Assembly: GCA_032718475.1 (NCBI GenBank)
Contig: JAUCBJ010002367.1
Location: forward strand, 1 to 45,495
Direction: 5' to 3'
DNA from: Nemertoderma westbladi
Lineage: Eukaryota > Animalia > Xenacoelomorpha
DNA length: 45,495 nt
Of the stretch, positions 906 through 33,861 are shown one piece after another. The notes below the pieces were generated by a model. That model was not told where the DNA came from, did not search any database, and saw only the letters and a program-made list of their open reading frames with translations. A program made the translations under genes and the position numbers. The first letter of the stretch is position 1, and each line of letters opens with the position of its first letter.

Positions 906-909
906 TATT

Positions 910-5600: not shown

Positions 5601-5611
5601 ATAACAGTTAT
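5601..5611 (+). promoter_or_regulatory. Non-tRNA primer-binding site of copy B (ATAACAGTTAT)
   Basis: Directly abuts the LTR end, lacks the TGG of a tRNA PBS, and is complementary to 4842-4852. Confidence 0.7.
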
Positions 5612-7601: not shown

Positions 7602-10600
7602 ATGGCTGACACAAGGCAAACTCTGTCAGATAGTCTCCTAGAAACAACAGTCTGTTTCTCAGATAGGAGTATAGAGAATCCCAGACTGAGGTCTGAGACC
7701 CCTCCTACTGTAAGAAAGGCACCCCTACAGTAGTTGTGTCAGAACCTAGGTTAGTAGAAGCAATTTCGCAATTTGCGAAGTTAGTGAAGCGCCGTAGGTC
7801 TGTCATAGGCACTCAGGCTCAAGTCAAGCGGGACCAAGAAGCAGCTGTTAAACAGCAGCAACACCCTAGCCGAGAACTTATTTCTCAGCGGCCCGATAGC
7901 GCCAGTAGTTCGGATACTGTAGAGCTGACACCCGAGCGCGGAGCAAAGATGGCAGATGCGGTTTATTCAGATCCCCTTCTCATTCTTCCTGCAGCCGTAC
8001 TCACTAGGGTATTGATTGCGGTGGAGGAACACCAAATTGATTGGGCGAGAAGTAAGCGATCGACCAAGGACAGTTATGCGGGATATACAAGGGAGGAACT
8101 GAAGTCTATTGTCGAGTCGCAATGGAACTTCCCTGGACCCGGACTCCCGTTTGACTTATCGGAAGCTGCCTGGGAAGACATACACAGGATGGGAGTGACA
8201 AAGCATACTAGTGATCGAGCTGTATGGAAGAGGTCGGCAGCAGGATACGTACAGGGATTCTTCAGCTCTTTGGAGCGATTAGAGGAACAACTGTTTCAAC
8301 AACCACAAGGACCTCAAGAGCAGGGAGAGCTGCTTTATCAAGTTAGAGAAAGAATTCTAAGAATCAGACTAATCCTATCGGCCTTTGAGGAAGCTTCGAA
8401 AAGAAGACAAGACACGTCGTTGCAAGTTGCCGTAAAGACTTGGTTCCAGCGGGTGGGTCTCAAGGTTCAAGAAACAGCCCAGTGGAAATCTCAGCTGGCT
8501 GAGCGCTTAACCCATGGAGAATCAACAGACGCTACCTTTTCTCAAGTGGAAAGCGAAGCGACAGCAGAGAAACCGCAGAAGAGGGACGCTATTGACATCT
8601 ATCTGTCAGACTATCAAAGATTTATAGGTGCCGAAGAGTTGAGGAGATGGCTGGCTGGACTTCGCCCTAATAGTGAAGGAGCCAAGTTTGTATTGGACGC
8701 ATTAGATACGGAAATGTTAGCTGCGAACCAAGCTAAATTTGATGAAAGACTCCGCATCGCTAGGGTCCAAGAAGAACAAGTAAAGAGAAAACGTATAGAA
8801 GACAGAAAGACAGCAGCAGCGGCAATGGCAGCGGCAGAAGCGGAAAGAAAAGCGGCAGAGGCAGCAGCAGAGGCAAAAGCGGCAGCTGCAGCAGTAGAAG
8901 CAGAAAGAAAAGCGGCAGTGGCAGAAGCAGAAAGAAAGATAGCAGTGGCAGAAGCAGAACGGAGAGCGTCTGAAGAGACCACCCAACTAGAGTTGGAAAA
9001 TCTTCAAGAGAAGCAAGACTACATAAATAAACAGTTAACAGCTAGTCAAATGCAGATGATGAGTCGATCTACTCCCAAAAGACAGGGATTTACATCATCT
9101 GATGAAGGCGATACCACCGATCCTGAAGGCGGAGGAAATAGATCTCGTTCCAACAGACGTAGAAGAATGCCTCACCGTCAGAAATTGCCTGATTTGCCCC
9201 CAGCCGTGAGAAGGCAACTACCTAGCACAGACTTAGGTAGTACAGAACCCACAGACCAAATTATTAGAGTCAAAAGACTCCCTACTATAGTAGATGAGCC
9301 TGAAATAATTAGGCCTGTTCTCGAAGCCACCCCTTCGGTGATAGAGACACCTGTACTCCCTGAACCTACCTCTAAATTCCCTCTGCACAGCACTAAACTA
9401 CCTGTGCCCAACAGAACCACCCCTGAAAATGTTCATGTCCTGGACTCCGAGCGAAGTATTAATGATTTGTCGCCCATTGTCGCGCGTCCGCCCGCTACTA
9501 TGTTGGCGCCTCCCGCTTCGGCGGTCGAGTGGGTAGATGAGGGACGACGGGAGATGGGTCTCCTGCTCGGGCAGCTGAGGGAACACCGTTTGTGCTCCTC
9601 TCAGCAGGTCCGGGAGATGGAAGGGACTGTGCAGCAGTTAAAGGGAACAGTCAGAGAGTGTAGGTTAGAGTGCAGCAGAGTATCGCGTTAGAACGCGACA
9701 AATTTGTAAATATACAAAATGGTATACCACCACCTCCTGTAACAATGTGTCAACCTGTTAGGTCTGAAGTATTTCATGCGCAAGGTGTGGAGCCTACACG
9801 CATCTATACTGCTAGTGAAGTAGAAACTCCTATAGTAAACCCTATTAAGGGTAATTATAAAACCTGTTGACAATGATATTGCATATAGACCTGATCATAA
9901 TCCGAGAAATTTATATACCGATAACTCGATATTAAATAACACGATGGCCCAAGAATGTTTTACGCGTCAAATGGCTAGAACCAAAGCCCGTCAAGCGGTA
10001 AAGGTGGGAGAGATCGTCAAGTTCAATGGAGATGAGATGAAATGGTTACCTTTTAATGAATATTATAAAGATAACATACAGAACTCTATGCTATCTAACG
10101 GAGAGAAACTTAGATTCCTCATCGAGTGTTTGGAAGGACCTCCCAAGTTAATGGCGTTAAAGTTTATTGGACATCCAGATGGATTAAGACAAGTTTGGGA
10201 TACACTAAACATCAGGTATGGTAATAGGACTAACATAGCTAGGTATTTATATGCGAAATTAATGGCGCCCCGAAAGTTTCTTAGCAGCGGGATTATAGAG
10301 TTTTCCGACGAGATTCAGGAGATCTGTAGACAACTAGATTGGTTAGGTAAGTCTCATGAATACCAGAATTCTATGGTTGTAGGAGCCTTAGCATCTACTT
10401 TGCCCAAGGGTGGAGTAGGTACACACTGGGACAAGAAAGTGTTATATATGATGGAACAACAACGAAGAGACCCTACCATGGCTGATCTCATGTCATTCTT
10501 AGATGGAGAGGTAAAATTACAGCTCCTAAAGCAGTCCAGAGAGAAGACACCGGAAAATAAGGTAAGTGAGAAACCCGTTTCTAGGAGAAAGGTAATACCA

Positions 10601-12195
10601 GTGTGTTATACAGACGACGGCGAAAGCCAGGCTTCTCAAGAGGAAGACAGTGGGAAAGACACTGAAAGATCTTACTATGACAACAAAGCGCCTAAGGACG
10701 TAAGTAAATTCAAGTCTCGAACCAATGACAGGATAGAACAGGTAAGAAAAACTCCTCCTACGTCTCCTAAGATAATTCATGGAAGAAAGCCCGAGGAAAG
10801 AACGAGTGTGCACAACGTTACCCAAGGTAAAGTAAGTAACATCAAACCAAAATGTGTGCTGTGCGACGGGCCCCACCGTTTAAGTGTGTGTGAAGAATTT
10901 CTCAAGAAATCACTAAAGGATAGACGTGAAGTCATGTGGGATAAGCGGTTGTGTTATAATTGCCTCAGACAAGGACACCAACGGCGAACCTGTTACTCCG
11001 ACGTAAGGTGTGCAAAATGCGGCGCTAAACATTTGCTGGACAACCCAAGTTCCGAACTAAGTTAAACATGTCAGGAATTATGCAGGTTTGGAAATCTACA
11101 GTAATCGCAGATTACTATGTAGGTGCGTTGTCCACCCCCCAGGATGAACTAGGAGAACACCGTATAAGGTCAGTAAAAATGGTGGCGATAAAGAACTTCG
11201 CTACCAGCCAAGTGGAACCTTATAACTGGGATGAGGACGATTTCACCCAGCAGCATAAGATACCTAGATTCAACACAGACTACCCTGGAGTGCAAATACT
11301 CATCGGCCAAAATGCGCATGAGGCGCTTGAGACATTAGAGAAACGGCCTGCTCGACCGCAACCATTGCGAACCTATGCGGGAAGAACAAGAGTAGGTTGG
11401 TACCTCACAGGACCTTCCCGTAGGACACTCCTAGAAAGACTACCCAAAGATCAGGTCCATCAGGAGAGTGAATGGGAAGAAGACATCAGTGAGGGAGAGA
11501 CGACCACAACTGAGGGAACACCATACTCCTCAGATAATGACGATATTAACTCTAATGTAGATCAATGGAGACATTGCCCCGAGACGATTAATCTAGCCGA
11601 CATCGCTTCCAGAGGAGCAACTCCTCAAGAACTGACAGATACTCCAGACTGGTTAGGTGGACCCGACTTCCTAAGTAAAGAAGATGAATAGCCTCCCCAT
11701 CTTACCACGGCTGAGATTAGACAAGCCAAGGGAGCGGAGAAAGTCAAACCTAAAACCCGGACGAGTAAATCAAGGTTATTTAAACCCGTGATAGATCTGT
11801 CTGTACTGCACATTGCCAGGGACGACGCTGTGGATCTAAACTCCCCCACCGCGAACAGATCTGTTGTGGAGATCAGAGAGAGAGACTGGAGATCTGGAAC
11901 ACCAGACGTCTCGCAGGAACTCTCACCTCTCCTGCCGGGAGCGATGGACCACTATAGATCCTGGAATCGGCTTTGTAAGGCCGCCGTGTGTTTGAAGCGA
12001 TGTTTCTATCGTCACTATTCCATGACGAAGAGGAAACCGGGAATTGTCTTCGAGACGCAGCAACTCAACCGCCCAGTCGGTCGTTTATGTTTACTGGAAA
12101 GAGACTGAGAACTCTCCGGAAACTATGGAAGGCAAGATACTCTTCCCACGACCACCTCCCTAATCCAACAAATATCTAGGGACTCCCCAACGTAA
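7602..12195 (+). pseudogene. gag-pol: Copy B gag-pol remnant: Gag (coiled coil, DUF1759-like domain, BEL zinc knuckles) with the protease active site, RT, most of RNase H and the integrase core deleted
   Basis: ORFs 7736-9691 and 9944-11065 (FNGDEMKWLPF..LSNGEKLRFLIECLEG; CVLCDGPHRLSVC; CYNCLRQGHQRRTC; CAKCGAKH), then 11068-11691 and 11788-12108. Deletion junctions at ~11032, ~11550 and ~12030 relative to copy C. Confidence 0.9.
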
Positions 12196-12724
12196 CAGCG
12201 TCTGGAGTGGGTGTGTGACTATATTATTTTATATTTGTTTTTATTATTTTATATTTATGTATGTATTATTATGTAATTTTATTATAATCGTTTTCTTTAA
12301 TTTTATTTAGTAGAATGTTATTTTTGCGATTATTTAGTAGATTAGTGCAATATATATTAGTGTTTATTACTTACTTAATTATATTATATTATATATTTAG
12401 TGCAACGGCGAGAAATAATTCTTTTTCTCTTTCCTTACTGTCCGTATTACATTACAAATGCGTGACTACAGTAAGATGAAATATCCGTACTTATTAAAGT
12501 ACAATAAAGCTCCTACTATATTCAAGTATTATTGGTAAGTAGAGTATTAGGAATGCAAAATTCAGATCCACGTGTCTCGGCTAAACCAAGCTCTGGGTAG
12601 ACCTTGGAAACGACTTGCCTCTTCTCACTGACATTGCTTCTTGCAATATTGCTCTCATACCGTATATTAAATAATACATATAGTAGCGTGATTTCCCTTT
12701 AACAGTAGCGTAAAACGCAAAATA

Positions 12725-13085
12725 AATCTGTTAAACCCTTTGACCATCTGTAATTCTAGTCGATTAAGATATCGCGGCACCCACCGATATACTTGAAAGA
12801 CAAAATTCTAGAATCAGTGGTTAACGTCCCCAGACAAGTTCTGGAATAAACCGGTGCCCATCTTAAATATTAACTATTAATATTTGTAAAATCTGTCAAA
12901 CAAATACAATAGAGTAAATACTTACAAGTTAACTCTAGAAAATCTATAAATTAAAATCTGTTAAATTTTAGATCCTTTAAAATTCTAGTCGATTAAGATA
13001 TCGTAGCACTTACCGATACTCTTAAAAAGACAAATTTCCTAGAATCAAGGATCCCAGTCCCCAGACATGCTCTGTAATAAAATTG
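12725..13085 (+). repeat. Diverged ~130-bp direct repeat pair in the post-pol non-coding region (also in C at ~21700-22080)
   Basis: AAATCTGTTAAA...AATTCTAGTCGATTAAGATATCG...GACAAA..CTAGAATCA...GTCCCCAGACA...AATAAA at ~12725 and ~12953. Confidence 0.8.
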
Positions 13086-13901
13086 CGTCTATTCCATATT
13101 AAATAATAAAATTTACGGGAATAAATTTAAATTCATATCCTATCATGAATTTGATAAATTGTTATTTTATACAATTTATAATATTCCCAAAATTCCATTA
13201 ATTAATAGATCATGGGATCGGAGATTCACCCTATTAAGTGTATTAGTGTGCGAGAATCTCCAATATATAGTCAATAGCCGATAAAATTCATAAAATCATG
13301 TATAAAGAGGAATATTGACAATTAAAGAATTACTATTAAATAGCATCCCAGATCTGTATGCATGAGAATTACCCTAATTCTACTGCTAGCTTTCCATAAT
13401 GTCACCATGGCAACAACCATGCTAGAATTAGAAGTGAGTTAAAAGAACAATAAAGGCTTGCCCCATTGAATAGCATAGGGAATAAATAGCATACTGCTAG
13501 TATCCAAGGATACATAATAATAACGTGGCATTCTGGAAGGCACTTTACTAACGGACAAATAGCCCGAATGTGTGCGATTTGTGACAGTTGTGTGGAATTT
13601 GTGCGTTTATAGGTGAATGTTACTACTAAAGTGTGTTTACAGTAGTGAGTCGCAATTGTGAAAGTAGCCCTAACTCTCCAGTGAGAACCTGAAGTAAATC
13701 TAAGCCTTTGGGACGGACAGTTGAGTGACTCGCGCTGGTTATTGTTGTCGTTGTGTAGCTACTACGTTGGCGAAAAACACAGCGACGACGGTACATAGGC
13801 GCTGAGGATCTTGCACTGTCCAGTGGCCGAGAGGGGTAGGCAGCGACGCCCGCTAGCCTAATTATAACCAATTATAATATTGATAAACTCATATAGCAGA
13901 T

Positions 13902-15444
13902 ATGACTGAGTTGATAGAAGATGATCTTGGTATCAGGGAGCGATATACTCTACCGTTGCAAGCATTTGTTGATAGCTTAATATGCGGCGACACTGGTCCA
14001 ACTACTACTGAGGACTATGGTAGTTATATCGAACCGCCAATGTCCCAGGAGCAACTCACTCGTGAGTTGGACTATCGAAAATTCACTGCTCGCTATACGC
14101 ATTGCAATGGTACGCATATGGACTTCTTAACTACTGGTCATCCTATCGATTTACACGATACGGACAATGTCGACACCGAAAGGGAAATGGCCCTATTTAA
14201 ATATCCTACCCAGCGGAGTCGGAACGATAAACTGAAAATCGAATGCGAAAATTCTATTCGAAATCGACTCGAAAGAAAAGACGTTAAAGAACGCGGTAAC
14301 TCCAACATATATTGGGAATTCTTGAGAAAAAAAAAACATTGTAAAACCGAATAAATATCACCCGCTTTTCCCCTACAAGACGTGCGTCTTTGGTATTATT
14401 GCGATGAATGCCCAAGACCCAACCAACAAACGGAAAGACATAAACATCCGCGGAGACGTTGCTTTAAACACGGTTTTACTCGCTATATTTACGGGAGTTT
14501 CGAGCGAAACTTGTTCGATGTGCCACCTACGCTCGCTCGACTCAAACGATCATAAACCCATGATCAGAGTTCCGGAATGCTCGGTCAGACCTCCTCATTC
14601 CCTAGTTAGACCTCAGACTCTTGATCCTAATAGTATCACAGATCCTCCCGAACTGTACTCACTGTTCAAAGATCTAGTGTTACCCGAACAGTTAGTCGGT
14701 GGCACTCCGGTTGTGGGCTCCCTAAATATTCGCCCATCTTACCTAGTCGGATTGACGCGCGGACATCTAATATCGCCATTCAATCGTATCATCGTCCCGG
14801 TTTAACCCGATACAACCTGTCACCGAGGATGAGGAGAGAGTTGTACGAAACGCGTTGGACGCTATTCGTCAAAGATCGGAAAAGGAACCTACAATTGTTT
14901 AGAGAAATGTAAATTGTAGCAGCAAGTCCAAGCAGTAAACGAATTAGCTTTATCTCAGTTCGATCCGGAAATCCAGAATCTCTAAGAAGATATCGAACTT
15001 TGGCGACCCTACTCTCTAAAAGAGTTTTAGACGAATGCTTCCAACAACAAGCGGAGGAAAATCAGCTCGAGGAGAAGCATATCGATTCCGATAGAGCCCG
15101 AGAACGCGAGTTGAAAAGAATCATCAAACCGAGCAAATTTCTCACTACACACGGTCTACCTACCGCTCTTGTGCAAACGACCCGTCAGGGACCAGTAGGA
15201 GCTGCTGTCCTAAAACGTGCTCTAAAAGCCGTTAGACCTCGCTCCACTGAGGTTGATATCGATCAACCAGGTACCTCGACCGGTGGATACACCGACCGTA
15301 ATCCTAAACCTTCCGATGCTATTGTATTGCACCCTTCACCCAGGAGTTATAGCCCTCCTAGTAAAGTGGCTCGCCCCAAAGAGAAAAGGACTCTTGCTAT
15401 CCTCCAAAAAACTGCGTAAACGCCGTCTGCGCAAGAAAGACTAA
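13902..15444 (+). pseudogene. Copy B accessory ORF remnant (frameshifted, large internal deletion at ~15085)
   Basis: MTELIEDDLG... through ...KRRLRKKD; homologous to the A and C segments. Confidence 0.75.
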
Positions 15445-15522
15445 CTGTTTAGAGTATTTTTTATATTTAGAAACTGTGATTTTTTATATTTTATAGAATT
15501 AAATCCCATTTTCTGGGAGCGG

Positions 15523-16715
15523 TGTAAAAGCTTTTGCGGATATAGCTAGTCATTTTCCCGGCAAAGTACTCTGTATGTGTTTTAGCGGACATAAAAAGCC
15601 GTTTTCCTACTGTGTAGGTGTTTTAGTGGACATAAAAAGCCATTTCTTCTGTATGTGTAATTTAGCGGACATAACTAGCGATTTTATGCCGCAATGCACC
15701 AAATACTTAATACAGTGTAGTCCGATGACGACATCTATCAGCTGATATGTCGACGTGTAGCTTTTGGCTTTCTTTGTTCTTTGTTTGGCTCGCTCGACCA
15801 ATCAGAGCGATTTTCACTTTGTGTTGTACCATACCTACTGAAACTCACGCAATTCAGTCAGTGTGTATTTTTCCTAAGCCTAGAACACCGGCTGTGGAAT
15901 TATTCTGTGTTTCAGACTTTAGCCAAACATTAGAACGGCTTTGATTATAGAAACGTATAACTGTTATCAAACTTATCACAAACCATATCAAAGCAGACTC
16001 ATAGCAAATAAACTCAATCTTTCACCGCATTATTTTACTGCTATTTACTGTCGGTTATTAATTGTATCAGTTGATGGAACATTGTTATATATGGAGAATA
16101 ACGATAAATAACCAGAAAACCCCAATCTTCTTGATATACTAAAGGTTAGAGAGACCGGTTACATATAGCAATTGCGACTTACATTAAAGTGGTTTTAGAG
16201 TGAATCTAATGCTATTTCATAGGCCCTACATGTGTCGGTTGCTGTTCTCTTTATATGTGACTAAAATTAGTGAAGGTCGGCAGATCAGTGTGCAGCAGTG
16301 TGCGGTATTGTGCATGAGTGTGATAGATAACAAAGCATCTCCTAAAGAATGCGCCTTATACGTGAATCAATAGCCATCCCGTTGTGTCTAGTGTTAGTCA
16401 TAACTCTGTTTATATACTTAGAGCGCCACGTCCTAAAAGGAACTGTTAATATTTCCCGAAAGTAAATAATATTTGTCAGAGATTATATATCAACGATCAA
16501 TCGAATAGTACAGTAGGCCTATACCGCAATAAGGTCAGAGCTTCCGAATCCAGTCTCCCGGGTAAATCCAGTGGGTGAATGGTCGCGCATAGGCTGGCTT
16601 CGGCTAATGTAGTTTTATGTGCATCAAATATTTGTCATAGGCTAAAGTCGATTTATAACTTAGAAGACACCTAAATTTGGCAGGTTAAACTGCTAAAGGT
16701 CTAAAAGCGCGAACA
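15523..16715 (+). repeat. Copy B 3' LTR (1193 bp)
   Basis: Follows the PPT; near-identical to 4408-5600; followed by the CTTTC TSD. Confidence 0.95.
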
Positions 16716-17669
16716 CTTTCTTTGTTCGGCTCGCTCGACCAATCAGGACGATTTTCATTTTATTTTGCACAGAGGCCTACTGAAAGTCGCGCAATGCATG
16801 ACGGTCTTTGTTTACCTTTCTGAGCAAGAACAACTGCTTGGAAATTATTCTGTACTTCTGTGTTGGAAGTTTCAGACTTTGGCCAACATTAGACGGCTTT
16901 GATTATAAAAACGTAAATCTATTATCTGACCACTGGCATGGTCTGACAAATCAAACCAAACTCTGCACTCACGCAATCCTATTCACCGCATTATTTTACT
17001 GCTATTTACTGTCGGTTATTAATTGTTACCTGTTGATGGATATGTTGTTATATTTGGAGAATATCGAGAAATAATCATAAAACCCCAAATCTTCTTGATT
17101 ACCAAAGGTTAGAGAGACCAGTTACCGGTAGCAATTGCGACTTACATTACAGTGGTTTTAGTGTGCATTAAATGCTATTTCATAATCCCTACATGTGTCA
17201 GTTGCTATCCTCCTTATATATGATTAAATTCAGTGACGGTCGGCAGATCAGTGTGCAGCAGTGCGAAGTTGTATGCAGCAGTGTGACAGATAATAAAGCA
17301 TCTCCTAAAGAATGCGCCATTTACGAAAATCAATAGCCATCTCGTTGTGTTTAGTATAAGTCATAACTCTGTTTATACTTAAAGCACCACGTCCTAAAGG
17401 AACTGTTAATATTTCCCCGAAAGTGAATAATATTGTCAGAGATTATATAGTAACATCAATCGAATAATACCGTAGGTCTGCACCGCAATCCCTTCAAAGC
17501 ATCCGAATCCAGTCTCCCTTAACCGTGGGTGAATGATGGCGCATAGACTGGCTTCGGCTAATGTTACTTCATGTGCACTAAATACTTGTTATAGGCTAAA
17601 GTCGATTTATAAACAAGAGGACACCTAAAATTGGCAGGTTAAACTGCTAAAGGTCTGAAAGCTCGAACA
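16716..17669 (+). repeat. Copy A 3' LTR, second part
   Basis: Continues the LTR sequence from the point interrupted at 4407; a diverged variant of the B LTR; ends GCTCGAACA. Confidence 0.88.
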
Positions 17670-18772
17670 CAATTATTTAATGTACTGAAGTTACATCCGC
17701 CGAAGCCAGTCTGTGCGCGATCATTCACCCACATTTAAGGGAGACTGGATTCGGGTGCTTTGAAGTTATTGCGGTGCAGACCTACTGTTTCGACTGTATT
17801 CGATTGATCGTTACTATATAATCTCTGACAAATATATTTACTTTCGAGGAAATATTAACAGTTCCTTTAGGACGTGGCGCTTTAAGTATAAAAACAGAGT
17901 TATGACTTAAACTAATCACAACTAGATGGCTACAGAGTTTCGTAAATAGCGCATTCTTTAGGAGATGCTTTATTATCTGTCACACTACTTCACACGACTT
18001 CACACTACTTCACACTGATCTGCCAACCGTCACTGAATTTGATCATATATAAGGAAGATCGCAACTGACACTTGTAGGGATTATGAAATAGCATTTAATT
18101 CACACAAAAACCATTATAATTTAAGTCGCAGTTGCTACCGGTAACCTGTTCCTCTCACCTTCAGTAATCAAGAAGATTGGGGGTTTTATGATTATTCATC
18201 GGTATTCTCCAAATATATCAGCAATATACATCAACAGATAACAACAATTAATAACAGAAGTAAAAATAATGCGGTGAACAATCAGCATGTGTTACATAAG
18301 TCAGTATGTACGCAGTTAATGTTTCCAGGCAGGTGATCGGTAGGGCCAGTCAGATAATAGATTTACGTTCTTGTAATCAAAGCCATCAGATGTTTAGGCC
18401 AAAGTCTGAAACTTCCGAAACAGAAGCACAGAAGAATTCTAAGCCGGTTCTCTGGCTCAGAAAGGTAAAACAAAGACTGTAATGCATTGCGCGGTTTTCC
18501 GTAGGCCCTTGTTCAACATAAAGTAAAATCGATCTGATTGGCTGAGCAGAACAAAGAGGTTCCACGTCTACAGGAAATCAGCTGACAGATTTCGTCATCT
18601 GAGCTCCAATCTTTTAGAATATTATGCGCATTGTGGCAAAAATGTCTTGTTATGTCCGCTAAAGCACCTATACTGTGCATTGTGGGGAAAAATGACTTGT
18701 TATGTCTGCTAAAGCACCTATACTGTGCATTGCGGGGAAAACTGACTTGTTATGTCCGCAAAAGCTTTTACA
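17670..18772 (-). repeat. Copy C 3' LTR (cut at the copy A junction)
   Basis: Direct repeat of 33944-35042; preceded on the minus strand by the PPT GGGAGTGG. Confidence 0.92.
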
Positions 18773-18850
18773 CCACTCCCAGAAAATGGGATTTAATTCT
18801 ATAAAATATAAAAAATCACAGTTTCTAAAATATAAAAATACTCTAAACAG

Positions 18851-20874
18851 TTAGTCCTTCTTATGTGAACGGCGTTTATGAAGTTTTTCGAGGCTAGCAA
18901 GAGTCCATTTCTCTTTGGGGCGAGCCACTTTACTAGGAGGGCTATAACTCCTGGGTGAGGGTTGCAATACAATTGCATCGGAAGGTTTAGGGTTACGGTC
19001 GGTGTATCCGCCGGTCGAGGTACCCGGTTGATCGATATCAACCTCAGTGGAACGAGGTCGAACAACCTTTAGAGCGCGTTTCAAGACAGCAGCTCTTACT
19101 GGTCCCTGACGGGTCGTTTCCGTCGTGGACCGTGAGTAGTGAGAAATTTCCTCGGTTTGATGGTTCTTTCCAACTCGTGTTCTCTGGCATTATATTCATA
19201 TGGTTGTCTATGAATTTCTTGTAACTCTGGATGCGAGTTTATGAACAAGTCACCGCGTGATTTATCAATGGTAGAAACTTTAAACTGTATGTGAGATCTT
19301 CCGGTTTCACCATATAATATTGAGTTAAATTGACATAATAAGGGCAGTCTTTGATCCCATAAAATGAGTTCGGTAGAGGTCTAGCGCGTAGGTTGACCTC
19401 ATGTACCATACGACGGACAAGATCCGCTCGAATGTCCGGAGGTTCAACGAGTATACCGTCGACACGAGTGGCCTCGATTGGCGGACGTTGTAACATAGGA
19501 GCGTCAGCGATAAGATCTCTAGATCTTAGGTTGATATCAACCGGTTGGGGTTGTACCGTGGCGAAGAGTTTGTCTCCGAAATGGGGAACCATCGAGGGAT
19601 GAATGATGGTTTTGGGATAGAAATAAGGATTTGAGCTTCTGGCTGGGCTAAAGCTGCTTCTTCTCTCTCGTCCATTTCGATATGCTTCTCCTCGAGCTGA
19701 TTTTCCTCCGCTTGTTGTTGGAAGCATTCGTCCAAAAACTCTTGCAGAGAGTAGATTCGTCCACGTTTGATGTCTTCCTCGAGATTCTGGATTTCCCGAT
19801 CAAACTGGGGTAAAGCTAATTCTTTTACCGCTTGGACTTGCCGCTGCAATTTACGTTTATCTAAACAATCGTAAGTTCCTTTTCCAATCTTTTGTCGAAT
19901 AGCGTCTAGCGCGTTTCGTACAATGCTCTCCTCCACCTCGGTGACGGGTTGTATCAGGGTTAGACCGGGACGATTATACGGGTTGAACGGCGATATTAGG
20001 TGTCCGAGTCCCAATCCGGCTAGGTAAGATGGGCGAATATCTAGGGAGCCCACAACCGGAGTGCCACCGATTAATTGTTCGGGTAACACTAGATCTTTGA
20101 ACAGTGAGTACAGTTCGGGAGGATCCGTGATACTATTAGGATCAAGAGTCTGAGGTCTCACCAGGGAATGAGGAGGTCTGACCGAGTATACCGGAACTCT
20201 GATCATAGGTTTATTTAAGAATCGTTTGAGTCGAGCGAGCGTAGGTGATACGTCGAACAAGTTTCGCTCGAAACTCCCGTAAGTATAGCGAGTAAAACTG
20301 TGTTTAGCGCAACGTCTCCGCGGATGTTTATGTCTTTCTGCCTGCTGGTTGGGTCTAGGGCATTCATCGCAATAATACCAAAGACGCACGTCTTGTAGGG
20401 GAAACGCGGGTGATCTTTCTCCAGTTTTACAATGTTTCTCTCAAGAATTCCAAATATACGTTGAAGTCACTGCGTTTATCCGGTTCTTCAACGTCTTCTC
20501 TTTCGAGTCGATTTCGAATAGAATTTTTCGTGTTCGATTCTCAGTTTTTCGCTCCGACTCCGCTGGGTATGATAATTAAATAGGATCATTTCCCTTTCGG
20601 TGTCTACATCGTCCGTATCGTGTAAATCGATAGGATGACCAGTAGTTAAGAAGTCCATATACGTACCCTTACGATGCGTATAGCGAGCAGTGAATTTTCT
20701 ATAGTCCAATTCACGCGTGAGCTGTTCATTTGACATTGGCGGTTTGATATAACGGCCATCGTCCTCCGTAGTAGGTTGACTAGCGTCGCCGCTTATTAAA
20801 CTATCAACAAACGCTTGCAAGGGTAGGGTATATCGCTCCCCGACACCAAGATCATCTTCTATCAACTCAGTCAT
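18851..20874 (-). pseudogene. Copy C accessory ORF remnant(s), with an internal deletion at ~19260
   Basis: ORFs 20488-20874, 19526-20389 (YYCDECPRP...HKHPRRRC; coiled-coil-like QQQAEENQLEE), 19239-19727 and 18851-19084. Confidence 0.75.
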
Positions 20875-22602
20875 AGCTGCTATATGAGTTTATCGATATT
20901 ATAATTAATCATAATTTAGGCTAGCGGTCGTCGCTGCCTCCCCCTCAATGCCCCCGGACAGCGCAAGCTCCTCAGCGCTGATGTACTGTCGCCGCTGTGT
21001 CTCTCGCCAAACGTAGTAGCTACACAATGACAACTATAACCAGCGCGAGTCACTCCACTGTCCGTCCCAAGGGCTCAGAATTACTTCAGGTTATTGCTAC
21101 AGAGGCAGGGTAACTTTCACAACTGCGACTCGCTACTGTAAACACACTTTAGTAGTAACATTCACCTATAAAGACACAAATTCCACGCACTTGTCACAAA
21201 TTGTACACATTCGGGCCATTTGTCCGTTAGTCAAGTGCCTTCGTGCCAATGCCACGTTATTATTATGTATCCCTGGATACTAGCAGTGTGCTATTTATTC
21301 CGTATGCCACTCAATGGGGCAAGCTTTCTATTGTTTCTTTAACTCGCTTCTAATTCTAGCGTGGTTGTTGCTATGGTGACATTATGGAAAGCTAGCAGTA
21401 GAATTAGGGTAATTCGCATGCATACAGATCTGGGATGCTATTTAATAGTAATTCTTTAATTGTCAATATTCCCCTTTATACATGATTTTATGAATTTTAT
21501 CGGCTATTGACTATATATTGGAGATTCTCGCACACTAATATACTTAATAGGGTGAATCTCCGCTCCCATGATCCATTAATTAATGGAATTTTGGGAATGT
21601 TATAAATTGTATAAAATGACAATTTATCAAATTCATGAGAGGATATGAATTTAAAATTTATTCCCGTAAATTTTATTATTTGATATTAAAATGGACACAA
21701 TTTTATTCCAGAACTGGTCTGGGGACTAGGATCCTTAATTCTAAGAAATTTGTCCTTTTAAAAGTATCGGTAAGTGCTACGATATCTTAATCGACTAGAA
21801 TTTTAAAGGATCTGTATTTTAACAGATTTTGGATTTCTAGATTTTCTTAGTTTACAAACTCCTTAGAGTTTATTTGTATGCATTTACTCTATTATAACAT
21901 TTGTTTTAATAGATTTTTATAAATATTAAATATTTAAGATGGGCACCGATTTATTCCAGAACTTGTCTGGGGACGTTAACCACTGATTCTAGAATTTTGT
22001 CTTTCAAGTATATCGGTGGGTGCCGCAAAATCTTAATCGACTAGAATTACAGATGGTCAAAGGGTTTAACAGATTTATTTTGCGTTTTACGCTACTGTTA
22101 AAGGGACATCACGCTACTATATGTATTATTTAATATACGGTATGAGAGCAATATTGCAAGGAGCAATGTCAGTGAGAAAGGCAAGTCGTTTCCAAGGTTT
22201 ACCCAGAGCTTGGTTTAGCCGAGACACGAGGATCTGAACTTTGCATTCCTAATACTCTACTTACCAATAATACTTGAGTATAGTAGGAGCTTTATTGTAC
22301 TTTAATAAGTACGGACATTTCATCTTACTGTAGTCACGTATTTATAATATGATACGGACAGTAAGGAAAGAGAAAAATAATTATTTCTCGCCGTTGCACT
22401 AAATATATAATGTTAAGTAATTAAGTAATAAACACGAGTATATATATTGCACTAATCTACTAAATAATCGTTAAAATAACATTCTACTAAATAAAATTAA
22501 AGAAAATGATTATAATAAAATTACATAATAATACATACATAAATATAAAAATAATAAAAACAAATATAAAATAATATAGTCACACACCCACTCCAGAAGC
22601 TG

Positions 22603-24092
22603 TTACATTGGGGAGTCCCTAGATGTTTGTTGGATTAGGGAGGTGGTCTTGGGAAGAGTATCTTGCCTTCCATAGTTTCCGGATAGTTCTCTGTCTCTTT
22701 CCAGTAAACATAAACGACCAACTGGGCGATTGAGTTGCTGTGTTTCGAATACAATTCCAGGTTTCTTAAAGATACGTCGCATGACGACGAATTCTACCGA
22801 TCGCACTAAACCATCATCGGATATATGAGTCTCGATGATACGACCTGTCTGCCACCGCTTACGTGGAAGATCTGATTCCACAATAAGTACCATGTCTCCG
22901 GCGCTGACGTTTTCTTGCTGTGCAAACCACTTGGTTCGAAGTTGTAGCGTAGGCAGATAATGTTTTTCGAAATGGTCAGCGAAACGATGGGATAATAACT
23001 GCATGAGTTGCCAAGTTTGTCGGCAGTATTCGTCTCCGTCCGTGATTTCCGATTGTGGGAGCATGGCTACAGGTTTCTTCAGTAGGAAATGCGCGGGTGT
23101 TAGCGCTTCTAGGGAGTCGGAACTCGATGAGACTGGCATAAGCGGTCTCTCGTTAAGATAGGCGGCGATTTCTTCCATTAACGTCCGCAAAAGTTCGTTG
23201 GTGAGATACGCGCGGCAAGGCACTATAAAGTGAAATGCGGTCTTCACGCTCCTTATTAATCTCTCCCAACTTCCTCCCCACCAAGGGGCGTCGGCGGCGT
23301 TGAAGGTCCAGCTAGATGCGGTTACCCTTAGCTGATCGTCCACCTGTCTTTGGTTCCAATCTTTAACGTAAGCCTTGATCTCATTATTGGCGCCAATGAA
23401 GTTCGTTCCCTTATCAGATCTCATCGTGTTGCTAGTTCCAAAGCGAGCGATCTGTCGGCGTAAAGTCAGTATGAAGCTGTTGGTAGATAGATCGTTCACC
23501 ATATCTAGATGGATCGCTCTACAAGTCATACAGACAAAGATGACACACCATCGCTTGACTATAGTCCTAGCACGATATACTTCAATAGGGCCAAATAAAT
23601 CCACACCAGTATTAGTAAAGGGTGGTTCATAGAAGCTTACTCGTTCCCTAGGTAATTCTGCCTCTCGCTGTGTTAAAGGCCTACTGAATGCTTTCCTACA
23701 GGGTATACAGTTCCTAAGAACTTGGTTCAGAGCTCTACGGGTTTATGGAAATAATAGCGAGTTCGAATTTCGCTCAGAATTCGTTCTCTACCAGCATGGT
23801 AAAGCCTACTGTGAACATCTACAATCATCTTGATTTGTATTTCAAGATTTCTAATGAGTATGGGAAATTTAGTGTCAAAGGACAATGGAGCATTAGTTAG
23901 TCTCCCTCCAACACGTATTAACCCATCTATCATTGTGCTAGAGAAACGATCCTTTAAGCGCATCTGTGGATTTCTCAACAACAGGAAATACTTATCAGAA
24001 TCTTCATAGCATTGCAGGAGTCTCAGTATCTGCTTATTGGTTTCTTCATGCTCTTGGTAACTGATCTTCACCGTCAGAAAACTATCCGACAT
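22603..24092 (-). pseudogene. pol: BEL/Pao integrase (HHCC, DDE core, DUF5641-like C-terminus), frameshifted
   Basis: GLIRVGGRL; H..LYHAG; DLFGP; RAIHLD; SDKGTNF; APWWGGSWERLIRS; LNERPL; LTPAHFL; GDMVLI; DGLVRSV; RPVGRLCLL. Confidence 0.95.
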
Positions 24093-24467
24093 TTAGTAGG
24101 TGGGAAGATCTTTAATAGCATGGACCTGCTCGGATGTCAGTGGAGCGGTATCACTAGCGATCTTCGTCCTGGAGTAGTGATGATGGAAGCATCGCTTCAA
24201 ATACACGATGGCCTTACAAAGCCGATTCCAGGAGCTATAGTGATTTATCGCTCTCTGCAGGAGAGGTGAGAGTCCCTGCGAGACGTCTGGTGTTTCAGAT
24301 TTCCAGTCTCTTTCTCTGATGTCTATAACAGATTTATTTGTGGGGGGGGAGTTTAGATCCACAGCGTCGTCCTTGGAGATGTGTAGTACAGACAGATCTA
24401 TCACGGGTTTAAATAACTTTGATTTACTCGTTCGGGTTTTAGGTTTGACTTTCTCCGCTCCCTTGGC

Positions 24468-25190
24468 TTATCTAATCTCAGCCGTGGTGAGATGAGGAGG
24501 CCATTCATCTTCTTCTTTACTAAGAAAGTCGGGTCCACCTAACCAGTCTGGAGTATCTATCAGTTCTTGAGGAGTTGCTCCTCTGGAGGCGATGACGGCT
24601 GGATTAATCGTCCCAGGGCAATGTCTCCAATGATCTACAGTAGAGCGACTAAGTATAATGGCTACTCTGTTGGTAACGAAGACACTGAACTGACAGACTT
24701 CATTTGTTATATACTCCAAAACGAGTAAAGCAACGGTCCAATAGACAGTTTTCTCCAATGGATAGTCAATCTGTTCTGTTACATTCCGGCCGATGGCTGT
24801 AGCGTATAGAGCCGCCTTTAACTCCGCTCGAGGAACTCGTAGTTTGTTGTTTATCAAGGCCTTAGAGGTAACCAAGGCAACTTTGATTCCATCCAGAGTT
24901 TCAACCCTCAGGTAGGCTACTATACCTATTCCCATATCGCTGGCGTCTCCAAACACATGGAGTTGATAAGAATACGTGGGGAGAACGTGACCAAAATATG
25001 AACGGGAAATCGTAAAGTTCTCGATGGATGGTAGAGAATCTTCCCATTTCATCCACTTCTTTAGTAGTTCTCCCTTAAGTGGATCGTCCCACGAGTGGTT
25101 TTCAAGCCTCATTTGTTGCACTAAGCTCCAAGCAACCAATATAACTGGGCTAATAAATCCCAATGGATCGAAATAAGTGCTCAGGATACT
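24468..25190 (-). pseudogene. pol: BEL/Pao RNase H region (Peptidase_A17/Pao domain)
   Basis: FDPLGFISP; WDDPL; LHVFGDAS; PRAELKAA; FVTNRV; WRHCPGTINPA.IASRG. Confidence 0.93.
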
Positions 25191-25270
25191 TAGACAAATC
25201 CGTTTAGTTTGAACTGGATTATCTCGAAGTTTTAGCTGGAAAAACTATATATCTCTCTCCATGTCCCATT

Positions 25271-26781
25271 TTAAACCAAGGGTTTTGGTTTCCGGAAGAT
25301 CGTCCTTGATAAGGTCCAAGATAAGATAGAATAAGGGATAAGGTCTTCTACCGGGATCGATTCCAGAAACTCACGGGAGTTACTAGTGAATTTGGTTAGT
25401 CGAAATCCACCGCGTTTCAAGCACTCTACCGTTCCCTTGGCAACATCAATGGCTTCTTCCACCGATGGGAGGGACTTTAAATTGTCGTCCATGTATATAT
25501 GCCATTTGATGTTGTCGATAACTGCTTTAGAGAAGGCGTCTCGGTTGTCATCAGCAGTGGTACGCACTACTGAACAAGCGTTCGAGGGGCTCGAGATGAT
25601 CCCGAAAGCCTGGATGGTCATCCAGTACTCCGCCGGTTTTGGTTGAGGTCTCCTTCAGGCGACCACAGAAATCGTAGGCTGTCTCGATCCCTATCCAGCG
25701 CCTTGACTTGTAAGAACATGCCTTCTATATCCGAAGCAAAAGCGATAGAATATTGCCGTAATCTTAATAGTATTCCCAACAAGGATTGGAGTAAGTTGGG
25801 TCCAGGCAACAATTCGGAGTTCAGGGATTGGCCCATGTAAAGGGCAGAGCCGTCGAACACTACCCGGACTTCGTTGGGTTTACCGGGTTTGGGAACGTAA
25901 TGATGTGTTAGATAATACGTTCTCTCTGTGATGGGTGTTTCTTCCGGTACTAGCTCCGCGTATCCCTTATCGATAAATTTCTTCAGCTGGGTCTTATACA
26001 TTTCCCTGGCTGAGACATTAGCCGTAAAACGCCGATGTAGTTGCGTGATTCTCTTCTCCGCTAAGGGTCGGTTATTTATAAAGTTGGGTTCTCGCCGTCG
26101 GAACGGAAGACCAATCTCATAGCAACCTTGTTCTTTAAGAAAATGGGTAGTCGTTTCCTGAATCTGCTTGGCTCTCTCTTCCTCGACGGACAAGGCCTTG
26201 TCGAAGGAATTAGGCTCTATGGCTTCTTGAGTAAAGAATCGTATGGTGTGTTCATCGCGAATTTTATTGTTGTATCGATCTATCACCTCGTTTAATTCGT
26301 CGTTGTAGTTGAATTGTCCGCCATGATTGATGAGATGGCAAAGGTTTACTTGGTTTCGCCAATTTTCATTTTCGGTGAGGAGGTCGATTGTATTTTCCTC
26401 GTCGAATAATTGGTTAATATCGTCATTATCTGAGGAGTTTGGTGTTCCCTCAGTTGTGGTTTCTCCCTCACTGATTTCTTCTTCCCATTCACTCACCTGA
26501 TGTATCCTTTCTTGAGGGAGTCTTTCCATCAGTGTTCTACGGGAAGGTCCAGTGAAGTACCAACCTACTCTCGTTCTTCCCGCGTATGTTTGTAATGGTT
26601 GCGGTTGAGCAGGCCGTTTTTCTAATGTCTCAAGCGCCTCATGCGCATTTTGGCCGATCAATATCTGTACCCCTGGGTAGTCGGTGTTGAATCTAGGGAT
26701 ATCATGCTGCTGGGTAAAATGATCTTCATCCCAGTTATAAGGTTCCACTTGGCTGGTAGCAAAGTTCTTTATCACCACCAT
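25271..26781 (-). pseudogene. pol: BEL/Pao reverse transcriptase with upstream linker, frameshifted
   Basis: YEIGLPFR; YLTHHYV; VRVVFDGSA; SLNSELLPGPNL; DIEGMFLQV; DRDSLRFLW; FG..SSP; YMDD; GGFRLTKF.SN. Confidence 0.95.
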
Positions 26782-27077
26782 TTTACTGACCTTATGCTAT
26801 GTTCTCCTAGTTCATCCTGGGGAGTGGACAATGCGCCTACATAGTAATCTGTAGCTACTGTGGATTTCCAAACCTGCATAATTCCTGAAAGGTTCAACTT
26901 AGTTTGGAACTTTGGTTGTCCACCAAAGATGTCTTCGGCTAGTTCTTTGCGGATGAATGTACCTATGCTGCCGGAGTCAAGGAGGGCGTTTACTATAAAA
27001 CTCTTACCTAGCCCGTGGACTCTCAGCTGCACCACTGGGAATTCTCGGATTCCGACGTTGGATTTTGGCGCTTCCAA
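26772..27077 (-). pseudogene. pol: Aspartic protease (DUF1758-like)
   Basis: NALLDSGSIGTFIRKELA active-site motif lying between the Gag knuckles and RT. Confidence 0.9.
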
Positions 27078-30000
27078 GATGGTTGTCGGTCCGGAATAGT
27101 CAGTTGCGCTTCGTTATCGGTTTCAGTCTCATATGTAAGCGCTCGATACACTGCGGTGTTTATCATATTACAGAATTCGTTTTCGTCGGAGAATTCGTCC
27201 GTGTAGAATCCTTCCATCTCAGAGCTGTGGTCAGTGTTGTTCACATCACTGAATTGGACATGTAGTTCGGACTCACTTACCTGACTCGTGCGGGTTCTAT
27301 CAAATTCTGTGTGCAGCAAGATATGATGTTTCGCGCCACACTTAGCGCACCTCATGTCTGAGTAACAGGTCCGCCATTGGTGTCCCTGTCTGAGACAATT
27401 ATAACACAACCGCTTATCCCACATGACATCACGTCTATCCTTTAGGGATTTCTTCAAGAATTCATCACATCCATTCAAACGATGGGGCCCGTCGCACAAT
27501 GCACATTTGGGTTTGATGTTACTTACTTTAACCTGGGTTGTGTTGTGCACACTTGTTCTTTCCTCGGGCTTTCTTCCATGAATTCTCTTAGGAGACGTAG
27601 GAGGAGTTGTTGTTACCTGTTCTCTCCTGTCACTGGTTCGAGGCTTAAATTTACTTATGTCTTTCCTCGTTTTATTGTCGTCTGTATAACACACTGGTGT
27701 TACCTTTCTCCTAGAAATGGGTTTTTCACTCACCTTATTTTCCGGTGTCTTCTCTCGGGACTGCTTTAGGAGCTGTAATCTTACCTCTCCATTTAAGAAT
27801 GACATGAGATCAGCCATGGTAGGGTCTCTTTGTTGCTGGTCCATCATATAGAGAACTCTTTTGTCCCAACAAGTACCTACTCCACCCTTTGGCAAAGTAG
27901 ATGCTACGGCTCCAACAACCATGGAACTCTGATATTCATGAGACTTACCTAACCAAATCTAGTTGTCTACAGATCTCCTGAATCTCATCGGAAAACTCTA
28001 TAATCCCGCTGCTAAGGAACTTTCGGGGCGCTACTAATTTCGCATACAAATACCTAGCTATGTTAGTCCTAGCTGTTATCTTTGTTGACTTCTTGAAGGC
28101 CTTTGATTCAGTCTCTCGCTCACGTATGTTCAGCATACTTTCATTATATGGGATTCCTGATGAAATTATTGCAGCAATCAGATCAGTATACGATGGTTCG
28201 ACAACATTTGTGTCTACTGTTGACGGTGACACAGAACCATTTGAAGTGTTATGGGGCGTCCTCCAGGGAGACACACTTGCACCATTCTTGTTCATAATTG
28301 TTGTTGACTATGTTCTACGCATATCCTTAGATCATCATAATGATGATGGGGTGATGATAACTCCACCTACTGGCTCCAGAAGTCGAGGAAATCCTGCCAA
28401 GTACCTAACTGATCTAGACTTTGCTGATGACTTAGGAGTACTCTCAGAATCACTAGAGGGAGCCCAACGAACTCATTAGAACATGCTGCTTCTAGTGTTG
28501 GTCTTTTTATTAACTCCAGAAAGACCAAAATTTTGACAGTTAACTTTGAAAGTCCTCAGCAAGTCTCTGATCGGATGAGCATAAGCTCAAAAGATGGTAT
28601 GCTTGAGCATGTGGATGACTTCTGTTACCTGGGATCATGGATCTGGAAGTCAGGTGAGGACCTTCGAATACGTAAGGGAAAGGCATGGGCAGCCTTGAAT
28701 AGGCTTTCCAGGATTTGGAAATCACCGAGAATTAATCAGAAACTTAAGGTCCAGTTATTTAGAGCAGCAGTAGTTCCAGTACTCCTCTATGGGAGTCCAT
28801 GCTGGGCTCTAACTGCTGAGGACACCAAATCTCTGGATGGCACATTCACAAGAATGCTACGCCGGGTTCATTGTGTCAAGTTCAATGCTCACATTTCCAA
28901 CCAGACACTATATAACATTGGACGTGTCTCATTGGTTCCCCCAAGCTTGACACTAGAACAAAATCGCCTCCGCTTTGCAGGACATTGCTTTCGCCATGAG
29001 GAACAGCCAGTGCATAATCTTGTACTTTGGCAGCCTCATGGAGTGAATAAGCATGGTGGACAGCCCATGACTTTCTGGAAACGCATCTTAAAGGACACTG
29101 GTCTTGAAGATGCGGATGATCTAGCAAATGTCATGGGTGATAGGGAGTTGTGGCGATGCAATTTTGTCGACAAGCCGGCACAGCATTCTTAAAAATGCAG
29201 CTGCAATGCAGCATGCCGATACTAGTATGTTAGTCCTATTACCATACCTGATGTTTAGTGTATCCCAAACTTGTCTTAATCCATCTGGATGTCCAATAAA
29301 CTTTAACGCCATTAACTTGGGAGGTCCTTCCAAGCACTCGATGAGGAATCTAAGTTTCTCTCCGTTAGATAGTACAGAGTTCTGTATGTTATCTTTATAA
29401 TACTCATTAAAAGGTAACCATTTCATCTCATCTCCATTGAACTTGACGATCTCTCCCACCTTTACCGCTTGACAGGCTTCGGTTCTAGCCATTTGACGCG
29501 TAAAACTTTCTTGGGCCATCAATTGAATTTCAATTGTATTATTTAATATCGAGTTATCTGTATATAAATTTCTCGGATTATGATCAGGTCTATATGGGAT
29601 ATCATTATCAACAGGTTTATAATTACCCTTAATAGGGGCTACTATAGGAGTTTCTACTTCACTAGCAGTATAGATGAGTGTAGGCTCCACACCTTGCGCA
29701 TGAAATACTTCAGACCTAACAGGTTGACACATTGTTACAGGGGGTGGTGGTATACCTCTTTGTATATTTACTAATTTATCGCGCTCTAATGCGATACTCT
29801 GCTGCACTTCTTGCAACTCTAACCTACTCTCTCTTACTGTTCCCTTTAACTGCTGAACAGTCCACTCCAACTCCCGGACCTGCTGGGAGGAACATATACG
29901 ATGTTCCCTCAGCTGCCCGAGCAGGAGACCCATCTCCCGCCGTCCCTCATCCACCCACTCTACCGCCGAAGCGGGAGCCGCCAACATAGTAGCGGGTAGA

Positions 30001-33850: not shown

Positions 33851-33861
33851 AAATCTATTAT
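33851..33861 (-). promoter_or_regulatory. Non-tRNA primer-binding site of copy C (ATAATAGATTT)
   Basis: Abuts the 5' LTR end; perfectly complementary to AAATCTATTAT in the C 3' LTR and A LTR, and pairs with one G-U to the C 5' LTR (AAATCTGTTAT). Confidence 0.7.

What the first reader, a model, noticed from the sequence alone, without database searches (positions are those of the whole stretch)
13902..20874. Large accessory coding region between pol and the 3' LTR, apparently under purifying selection and not env-like
Seen: all three copies carry sense-strand ORF remnants ~1.7 kb after the pol stop, running from MTELIEDDLG... to ...KRRPRKKD just before the PPT. Divergence between copies is synonymous-biased: in the 28 codons from MSKEQ (A 1264 vs B 14040), 7 differ synonymously and 3 non-synonymously; in AVLKRALKVVRP, 6 of 7 differing codons are synonymous. 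I see no signal peptide, transmembrane helix or furin/fusion arrangement like the env ORFs of roo, Tas or Cer7. It has a Cys/His cluster (CDEC...HKH....C), a coiled coil, P-[T/G]-T-S motifs (QPTTS, QPGTS; possibly MATH/SPOP-type binding sites, speculative) and an NLS-like basic tail. Inference: one or more uncharacterised nuclear accessory proteins, for example for anti-silencing, RNA handling or targeting.
Basis: partly seen in the sequence, partly recalled or inferred. Interest (0 to 1): 0.75.

Follow-up and report, generated by a model that had tools for sequence, protein, structure and literature searches.

The report
Retrotransposon helper gene with swappable core
A large, many-copy retrovirus-like mobile element of an animal carries, behind its usual genes, an extra non-envelope gene whose conserved ends flank interchangeable middle parts; its protein likely binds the element's own RNA in the nucleus, a job not yet tested.

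Summary
The window holds three nested BEL/Pao LTR retrotransposon copies (A, B, C). [quoted passage not shown]

Pairwise dN/dS in that frame is 0.16-0.43, close to gag (0.17-0.34). The shifted sense frames give 1.2-2.5 and the spacer about 1. It is not env: there is no hydrophobic stretch and no env match.

The copies share only their N- and C-terminal ends. B and C have a Cys/His-plus-helical middle. A has an unrelated middle with tandem zinc knuckles, although A is C's closest relative in the ends. One contig in each of two other studies joins the N end directly to the zinc-knuckle part.

No protein homologue was found. The best lead is weak: yeast Air2 knuckles, E 0.012.

Best reading: a trans-acting nuclear RNA-binding helper that works like CERV of C. 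elegans Cer1 or HIV Rev, with an exchangeable zinc-binding core (confidence about 0.45; function inferred only). This is a new variant of a known kind: non-env third ORFs are described for Gypsy elements, and I found none described for BEL/Pao.

The parts
4408..5600 (+). 5' LTR of copy B (TGT...ACA), inserted into the 3' LTR of copy A
   Evidence: 14 of 1193 positions differ from 15523-16715, no gaps
5601..5611 (+). 11-nt primer-binding position of B; not a tRNA site, exact complement of an 11-mer at LTR position 435
7602..12195 (+). gag and deleted pol of B (lacks reverse transcriptase and most of integrase relative to C; non-autonomous)
   Evidence: jumps at 11032, 11550, 12031; DUF1759
12196..13901 (+). 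1.7-kb non-coding spacer of B, ending in a CAG two bases before the ATG (possible splice acceptor, inferred)
   Evidence: (dN/dS 0.76-1.09 in three sense frames)
13902..14280 (+). accessory gene of B, shared N-terminal module
14330..15085 (+). accessory gene of B, middle type 1 (Cys/His cluster, then helical segment); one stop and several small deletions
   Evidence: dN/dS 0.31-0.41 against C
15096..15444 (+). accessory gene of B, shared C-terminal module with basic tail; follows middle 1 in frame across the deletion
15523..16715 (+). 3' LTR of copy B
16718..17669 (+). rest of the 3' LTR of copy A
17670..18772 (-). 3' LTR of copy C
   Evidence: 36 of 1095 positions differ from its 5' LTR
18851..19258 (-). 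accessory gene of C, shared C-terminal module with basic tail
19259..19676 (-). accessory gene of C, segment absent from B and A (no second copy in the window, so selection untested)
19677..20440 (-). accessory gene of C, middle type 1; part of a 304-codon open frame (19526-20440)
20496..20874 (-). accessory gene of C, shared N-terminal module from the ATG
20875..22602 (-). 1728-bp spacer of C
22603..31950 (-). gag-pol of C (protease, RT, RNase H, integrase in BEL/Pao order), interrupted by a LINE-type insertion at about 28072-29221
33862..35042 (-). 5' LTR of copy C
1241..1500 (+). accessory gene of A, 5'-truncated N-terminal module
1501..2994 (+). stretch of A absent from B, C and the X4/X5 joined form; holds an orphan 216-codon frame (2311-2961)
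2996..3649 (+). accessory gene of A, middle type 2: tandem zinc knuckles (CX2CX5HX4C, CX2CX4HX4C, and a looser one upstream)
3650..4052 (+). accessory gene of A, shared C-terminal module, same frame as the zinc-knuckle part

Best explanation
This BEL/Pao family carries a third, non-envelope gene under purifying selection, with shared ends and exchangeable middles, and its protein is likely a nuclear RNA-binding helper that would carry the element's unspliced genomic RNA past nuclear retention and decay, as CERV does for Cer1. Shown: the frame, its selection, the lack of membrane features, and the different middles between shared ends. Inferred step 1: it is expressed from a spliced or internally started message, entering at the CAG just before the ATG. 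Inferred step 2: the basic tail takes it into the nucleus. Inferred step 3: the Cys/His cluster or the zinc knuckles bind element RNA, and the helical segment oligomerises. Inferred step 4: it works in trans, so deleted copies such as B can still move. Inferred step 5: the middles are exchanged by recombination between co-packaged RNAs, with the shared ends as crossover sites.
For: Selection: dN/dS is B-C 0.33-0.43 over 448 codons (p 1e-8 to 1e-5), A-B 0.16-0.21 over 179, A-C 0.22-0.29 over 197. Gag gives 0.17-0.34, the shifted sense frames of these three comparisons 1.19-2.48, the spacer 0.76-1.09. In A's knuckle module, 15 of 21 listed differences to other copies fall on third codon positions (p 4e-4). 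Not a membrane protein: best hydropathy 1.07. Exchange: A and C differ at 24 of 383 shared-end positions, against 40 for A-B and 40 for B-C, yet B and C share the middle. One contig each in X5 and X4 joins 1488 to 2995, and by length count the X5 contig stays in frame. B's deletion junction and A's knuckle-to-tail junction are also in frame. RNA-binding lead: Pfam zf-CCHC_3 E 2e-4 to 9e-4, below the curated cut-off; ESM Atlas neighbours are zf-CCHC and AIR2-like clusters at 0.78-0.86; best PDB match is Air2 (2lli) at E 0.012 with the same knuckle spacing, while the element's own gag knuckles match retroviral nucleocapsids and not Air2 (0 of 16 rows). Precedent: CERV sits in the same place, is unlike Env, comes from a spliced mRNA, has a Cys-rich loop, a coiled region and a KRKK signal, and is needed for gRNA export (PMC10309623).
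Against: No expression, localisation, splicing or binding data exist here. No homologue was found for C's 304-residue frame, the knuckle frame or the N module, so no function transfers by homology. The Air2 match comes from a hand-picked 79-residue stretch. The whole 261-residue frame found no Air2 at E<=1, and every Atlas score is under 0.9. The knuckles occur in one middle type only; the B/C Cys/His cluster matched no family. The N module alone is only weakly selected in B-C (0.44-0.61, second interval spans 1). The CAG before the ATG is a short motif seen in two copies. Both structure models are too poor to inform (pLDDT 48.9 and 32.9). The joined form rests on one contig per run, laid at 80% likeness.
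Confidence: 0.45

Rival explanations
1. The protein is an anti-silencing or transcription-activating factor acting on chromatin or on host defence proteins, like foamy-virus Tas/Bet or plant VANC proteins (recalled). The variable middle would be the arms-race interface.
For: Shared ends with exchanged middles; orphan status; basic tail; a family with very many divergent copies (31,179 contigs laid in X1). Giant planarian Burro elements carry AIR1, MATH and BIR motifs read as interference with host systems (PMC6431247, passages).
Against: No DNA-binding, chromatin-reader or ligase-adaptor domain was detected. The shared middle of B and C is under purifying, not diversifying, selection (0.31-0.41). 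The P-x-T-S motif is at background level. The one recognisable module is a knuckle array of the RNA-binding kind.
Confidence: 0.25
2. The protein is a particle or integration helper: packaged with Gag, chaperoning reverse transcription (this family seems to prime without tRNA) or steering integration.
For: Zinc knuckles are typical nucleic-acid chaperones (established knowledge). The primer site is complementary to the LTR and not to a tRNA. The three copies lie nested or adjacent.
Against: Gag already has its three knuckles. A's knuckles do not align with them. Three copies in one window do not show targeting.
Confidence: 0.12
3. The region holds several short genes, or captured host or transposon fragments that hitch-hike, rather than one modular protein. 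A's middle would be a secondary insertion.
For: All copies are broken, so no single full frame was seen. A carries 1.5 kb that the joined form lacks, including a 216-codon frame in another phase. Rotifer LTR elements share ORF3 types with unrelated retroelements (PMC5408684, passages).
Against: Selection covers the N, middle and C parts. B reads from the ATG into middle 1 in one frame with a single stop. Three different junctions keep the frame. No host gene or other element matched.
Confidence: 0.14
4. It is a decayed or very divergent envelope gene, or a small fusogen.
For: It sits in the env position, in the sense direction; furin-like strings occur.
Against: No signal peptide or transmembrane stretch in the selected frame (best 1.07); no Pfam, PDB or viral-fold match; the C terminus is basic and soluble.
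Confidence: 0.04

Closest known systems
CERV of the C. elegans Gypsy element Cer1 (PMC10309623)
   Same: [quoted passage not shown]
   Different: Gypsy, not BEL/Pao; CERV shares exons with gag and has tested function; no sequence likeness was found or specifically tested; no swappable middle in the parts of the paper I read
Env-like third genes of Belpaoviridae (roo F-type, Tas/Cer7/Atlas, mosquito gB-like; PMC8742986, PMC13524379, PMC554778)
   Same: Same position in the same superfamily
   Different: Those are membrane fusogens; this frame has no membrane features. The element is about 16.2 kb, against the 4.2-10 kb in the ICTV profile, and lacks the tRNA primer site
Non-env ORF3s of bdelloid LTR elements Vesta/Juno (PMC5408684) and plant additional ORFs (PMC7264820)
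   Same: Family-specific third ORFs, modular and shared among elements, often without homologues
   Different: There whole ORFs (DEDDy, GDSL) are gained or lost; here the middle of one frame is replaced between shared ends within one family
Air1/Air2 (TRAMP) zinc knuckles, and the AIR1 motif of planarian Burro elements (PDB 2lli; PMC6431247)
   Same: Tandem CX2CX5HX4C then CX2CX4HX4C spacing in A's middle
   Different: Only two clear knuckles; E 0.012 on a chosen stretch; no evidence of common descent or of TRAMP contact

Membership tests
BEL/Pao (Belpaoviridae) | LTRs flanking gag-pol with order PR-RT-RH-IN | tested here: met
   (motifs at 26984, 25495, 24950, 23601 on the minus strand)
BEL/Pao (Belpaoviridae) | Pao-specific domains (Peptidase_A17, DUF1759, DUF5641) and triple Cys-His box in gag | tested here: met
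   (E 5e-34, 1.5e-13, 6e-21); integrase at most about 46% identical to 120 database relatives, those named mostly from fishes
BEL/Pao (Belpaoviridae) | 18-nt primer-binding site complementary to tRNA-Arg or tRNA-Gly; genome 4.2-10 kb (ICTV profile) | tested here: not met
   11-nt site complementary to the LTR; C is 16.2 kb without its LINE insertion. Host tRNAs were not available to compare. The element is filed as BEL/Pao by its Gag and Pol, as an atypical member
Env or small fusogen (sORF2/FAST) | Signal peptide, fusion peptide, transmembrane anchor | tested here: not met
   (hydropathy scan only; no dedicated predictor was run)
Env or small fusogen (sORF2/FAST) | Profile or fold match to a viral fusogen | tested here: not met
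   the fold searches used a low-confidence model and are weak tests
CERV/Rev-like RNA export factor | Non-env ORF between pol and 3' LTR with Cys motif, helices, basic signal | tested here: met
CERV/Rev-like RNA export factor | Expressed from a spliced message | tested here: inconclusive
   CAG before the ATG in B and C; only contigs were available, no raw RNA reads
CERV/Rev-like RNA export factor | Nuclear, binds genomic RNA, required for its export | not testable with these tools
   needs cells
Air1/Air2/ZCCHC7 family | Five knuckles and the polymerase-binding motif (recalled) | tested here: not met
   two clear knuckles and one loose; no AIR2-like Pfam model hit; likeness only

The most novel reading that the evidence does not exclude
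A BEL/Pao lineage has become a 'complex' retroelement: 16 kb long, priming itself without tRNA, and carrying a cassette gene whose fixed ends accept interchangeable zinc-binding cores by recombination. One core mimics the Air/ZCCHC7 subunit of nuclear RNA surveillance to shield the element's RNA from the exosome.
Probability: 0.2. Interest if true: 0.85.

Novelty: new variant of a known kind. Interest (0 to 1): 0.6.

Why it matters
BEL/Pao elements are described with gag, pol and at most an env-like gene. A selected, soluble third gene would make this one a 'complex' element with its own regulator. How animal LTR retrotransposons get unspliced RNA out of the nucleus and past surveillance is answered for few elements (CERV is the example I found). 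Two natural middle types between the same ends are a ready-made comparison: they would show which part recognises RNA and which part meets the host.

Tried and rejected
No whole genome is held for this window, so copy number, intact copies and restriction to a clade could not be tested.

Protein searches that found nothing:
- C's 304-residue frame: none of 2,075 candidates at E<=0.001, none among 1.84 billion representatives, Atlas best 0.89 to unrelated bacterial clusters, one PDB sequence at E 0.9.
- A's knuckle frame: none of 80 candidates at E<=1.
They gave nothing useful in Pfam, PHROGs or PDB.

Locus scans found no relative: viral contigs, metagenome contigs.

AlphaFold without an alignment gave pLDDT 48.9 and 32.9. 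The second model was not searched. The wide PDB search was not run. Rfam gave nothing over 4400-16720.

No RNA holder was listed. X4 is only guessed to be RNA and is kept as contigs, so it is no evidence on expression either way.

Rejected readings:
- An antisense gene as the source of the signal: the best antisense frame gives 0.44-0.57, weaker than sense, and shares third positions with it.
- SPOP/MATH motif: at background level.
- Sequencing error as the cause of B's breaks: B's LTR pair has no gaps in 1193 positions.
- Selection on the 216-codon frame: only 6 listed differences, 1 at a third position, uninformative.
- A 105-codon hydrophobic frame in A (1734-2051, hydropathy 2.32) lies in the stretch that the joined form lacks and has no ATG-proximal partner in B or C; not pursued.

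No complex prediction was run.
Full report
Layout. Self-comparison of the window shows three copies of one LTR element. B spans 4408-16715 on the plus strand; its LTRs differ at 14 of 1193 positions with no gap. It sits inside the 3' LTR of A, whose remainder follows at 16718-17669. C lies on the minus strand from 35042 to 17670; its LTRs differ at 36 of 1095 positions. Pfam places the family in BEL/Pao (Peptidase_A17 E 5e-34, DUF5641 E 6e-21, DUF1759 E 1.5e-13), and the Pol motifs run PR-RT-RH-IN. The integrase has 120 database relatives at E<=1e-20, the best-scoring about 42% identical, those with names mostly from fishes, a few from an echinoderm, an acoel, a nematode and insects. C is 16.2 kb without a LINE-type insertion in gag. 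B lacks RT and most of integrase, so it is a non-autonomous copy that moved recently. No genome is held.

The observation. In B and C an ATG lies 1.7 kb behind the pol stop, and a frame broken by stops and frame changes runs to a basic tail just before the polypurine tract. C's version spans 2024 nt, about 670 codons; B's about 510. A begins only at 1241.

Selection. I counted synonymous and non-synonymous differences in ungapped blocks of pairwise alignments, without and with a threefold transition weight. B-C: 0.33 and 0.43 over 448 codons (95% intervals 0.22-0.48 and 0.30-0.65). A-B: 0.16 and 0.21 over 179. A-C: 0.22 and 0.29 over 197. Controls: the two shifted sense frames 1.19-2.48, the spacer 0.76-1.09, four gag blocks 0.17-0.34, protease region 0.16-0.21. 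One RNase H block gave 0.53-0.68, which shows how much decay after insertion blurs such figures. Left out were codon pairs with a stop, one block under 45 nt and other short blocks, and B-C blocks 14248-14326 and 15405-15461. The N module alone is the weakest (0.44 and 0.61, the second not significant). The best antisense frame (0.44-0.57) is the one sharing third positions. The region has thus been held as protein about as firmly as gag while the lineages diverged.

Not env. No 19-residue window in the selected frame exceeds hydropathy 1.07. Nothing in Pfam, PDB or predicted viral folds matches, though the fold searches used a poor model (pLDDT 48.9). That model gives four helices at residues 166-263 with pLDDT near 70.

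The copies share only the ends. B lacks about 490 nt of C, and its junction is in frame. A has a 2.15-kb middle with no DNA match to B or C. The only protein-level likeness is a 21-residue patch (score above all 200 shuffles). In the shared ends A and C differ at 24 of 383 positions, A-B and B-C at 40 each. A is therefore C's closer relative, yet B and C share the middle, which points to exchange rather than slow divergence. A's last 650 nt of middle hold tandem zinc knuckles and run in frame, across one stop, into the shared tail.

Other copies. Contigs of four runs (three labelled organism A, from three studies; one labelled organism B) were laid on C and on A at 80% likeness. X1 may be the source sample. 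On C's stretch 31,179 contigs were laid in X1 and 9,490 in X3, in all identity bands, and all 30 bins were covered in all four runs, so this is a large family. One contig in X5 (112 letters on the shorter side) and one in X4 (44) join 1488 straight to 2995, that is the N module to the knuckle module. By length count the X5 contig keeps the frame. X1 and X3 list no such joint among the 15 of 20 shown. Another X5 contig links the 216-codon frame to the knuckle module. A B-type joint appears once in X1 and once in X3, with sides under 30 letters, and may be this very locus. Of the 40 best-supported differences shown (443 more not shown), 21 fall in the knuckle frame and 15 of these on third codon positions (p 4e-4). 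The knuckle module is therefore a selected part of the family, not stray DNA. At least four layouts exist between the same ends.

What the protein resembles. C's 304-residue frame has no homologue among 1.84 billion representatives or by word search. The knuckle frame has none by word search. Locus scans found nothing. The knuckles give zf-CCHC_3 at E 2e-4 to 9e-4, below cut-off, Atlas neighbours among CCHC and AIR2-like clusters at 0.78-0.86, and yeast Air2 as the best of 10 PDB rows at E 0.012 with matching spacing. That stretch was chosen by hand after I recalled the Air2 spacing, and the whole frame did not find Air2. As a control, the gag knuckles found retroviral nucleocapsids and no Air2 in 16 rows. 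The lead is weak but is not simply the element's own gag pattern.

Mechanism. A soluble protein with a basic tail, helices and a zinc-binding core, encoded in the env slot behind a possible splice acceptor (CAG two bases before the ATG in B and C), fits CERV best. [quoted passage not shown] I put a CERV/Rev-like RNA role at 0.45, a chromatin or anti-silencing role at 0.25, several genes or hitch-hiking fragments at 0.14, a particle or integration role at 0.12, env at 0.04. All functional steps are inference. B's recent move with a broken gene and no RT fits action in trans.

Literature. Read: PMC10309623 (abstract, passages, section 15); PMC8742986 (whole text); PMC7264820 (first of three parts); passages of PMC13524379, PMC3118150, PMC554778, PMC6431247, PMC5408684, PMC6338049 and bioRxiv 10.1101/2025.03.14.642691. 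No supplements were opened. The ICTV profile lists only gag, pol and an env-like gene, a tRNA primer site and 4.2-10 kb. Eight searches (listings and abstract starts) showed no non-env third gene in a BEL/Pao element. The library lacks most subscription papers and Repbase, and I recall, unchecked, that C. elegans Cer7 was described with an extra small ORF besides env. Non-env third ORFs are known in Gypsy-type elements of rotifers, plants and nematodes, and an AIR1 motif in planarian Burro. Two earlier AI notes from other genomes report similar third ORFs in Gypsy-type or unspecified LTR elements; I did not test them.

Verdict. A real, selected, orphan accessory gene in an unusually large BEL/Pao family, with a middle that differs between copies. 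The kind is known; the superfamily, the swapped core and the accompanying self-complementary primer site are the new part. Function is open to direct test. Interest 0.6.

Noticed in passing
window 5601-5611 and 4842-4852 (B); 33851-33861 and about 18354-18364 (C, minus): No tRNA-type primer site. The 11 nt behind the 5' LTR are the exact complement of an 11-mer about 10 nt behind a TATA-like box in the LTR (B 11 of 11; C 11 of 11 in its 3' LTR, 10 of 11 in its 5' LTR). B and C differ at 3 of the 11 positions on both sides. This looks like Tf1-type self-priming (recalled); search listed no BEL/Pao case by title or abstract start. A fold of the predicted leader did not form this pairing.
   Followed up: partly
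window 12230-12830 and 13230-13430: Parts of the non-coding spacer differ by only 2-4.5% between B and C, against synonymous divergence near 0.2, so they are constrained or recently exchanged; a 160-bp direct repeat lies at 12724-12885 and 12954-13114.
   Followed up: partly
window 2311-2961: Orphan 216-codon frame in A's middle, covered by contigs of all four runs and linked to the knuckle module in one X5 contig; no Pfam, PHROG or PDB match, model pLDDT 32.9.
   Followed up: partly
window 273-914 (-) and 952-1240 (+): [quoted passage not shown]
   Followed up: no
window 27982-29192 (+): LINE-type RT fragment (RVT_1 E 1.4e-8, DUF6451 E 4e-4) inserted into gag of C in the opposite direction.
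   Followed up: no
window 17669/17670: The end of A's 3' LTR abuts C's 3' LTR in opposite orientation; C's LTR is about 80 bp short there, leaving a 1-kb inverted repeat.
   Followed up: no
window 8760-8960 and 30480-30850: Gag has an alanine/glutamate-rich AEAERKAA repeat whose copy number differs between B and C, and the leader before gag is about 2 kb long.
   Followed up: no
window 39502-42850: 79-bp tandem array of about 42 units with strong A/T skew, and a diverged inverted piece at 43064-43273.
   Followed up: no
window 13402-13758 (-) and 21020-21283 (+): Antisense open frames of 118 and 87 codons at matching places in the spacers of B and C; differences there are spread evenly over codon positions, so probably chance.
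   Followed up: partly
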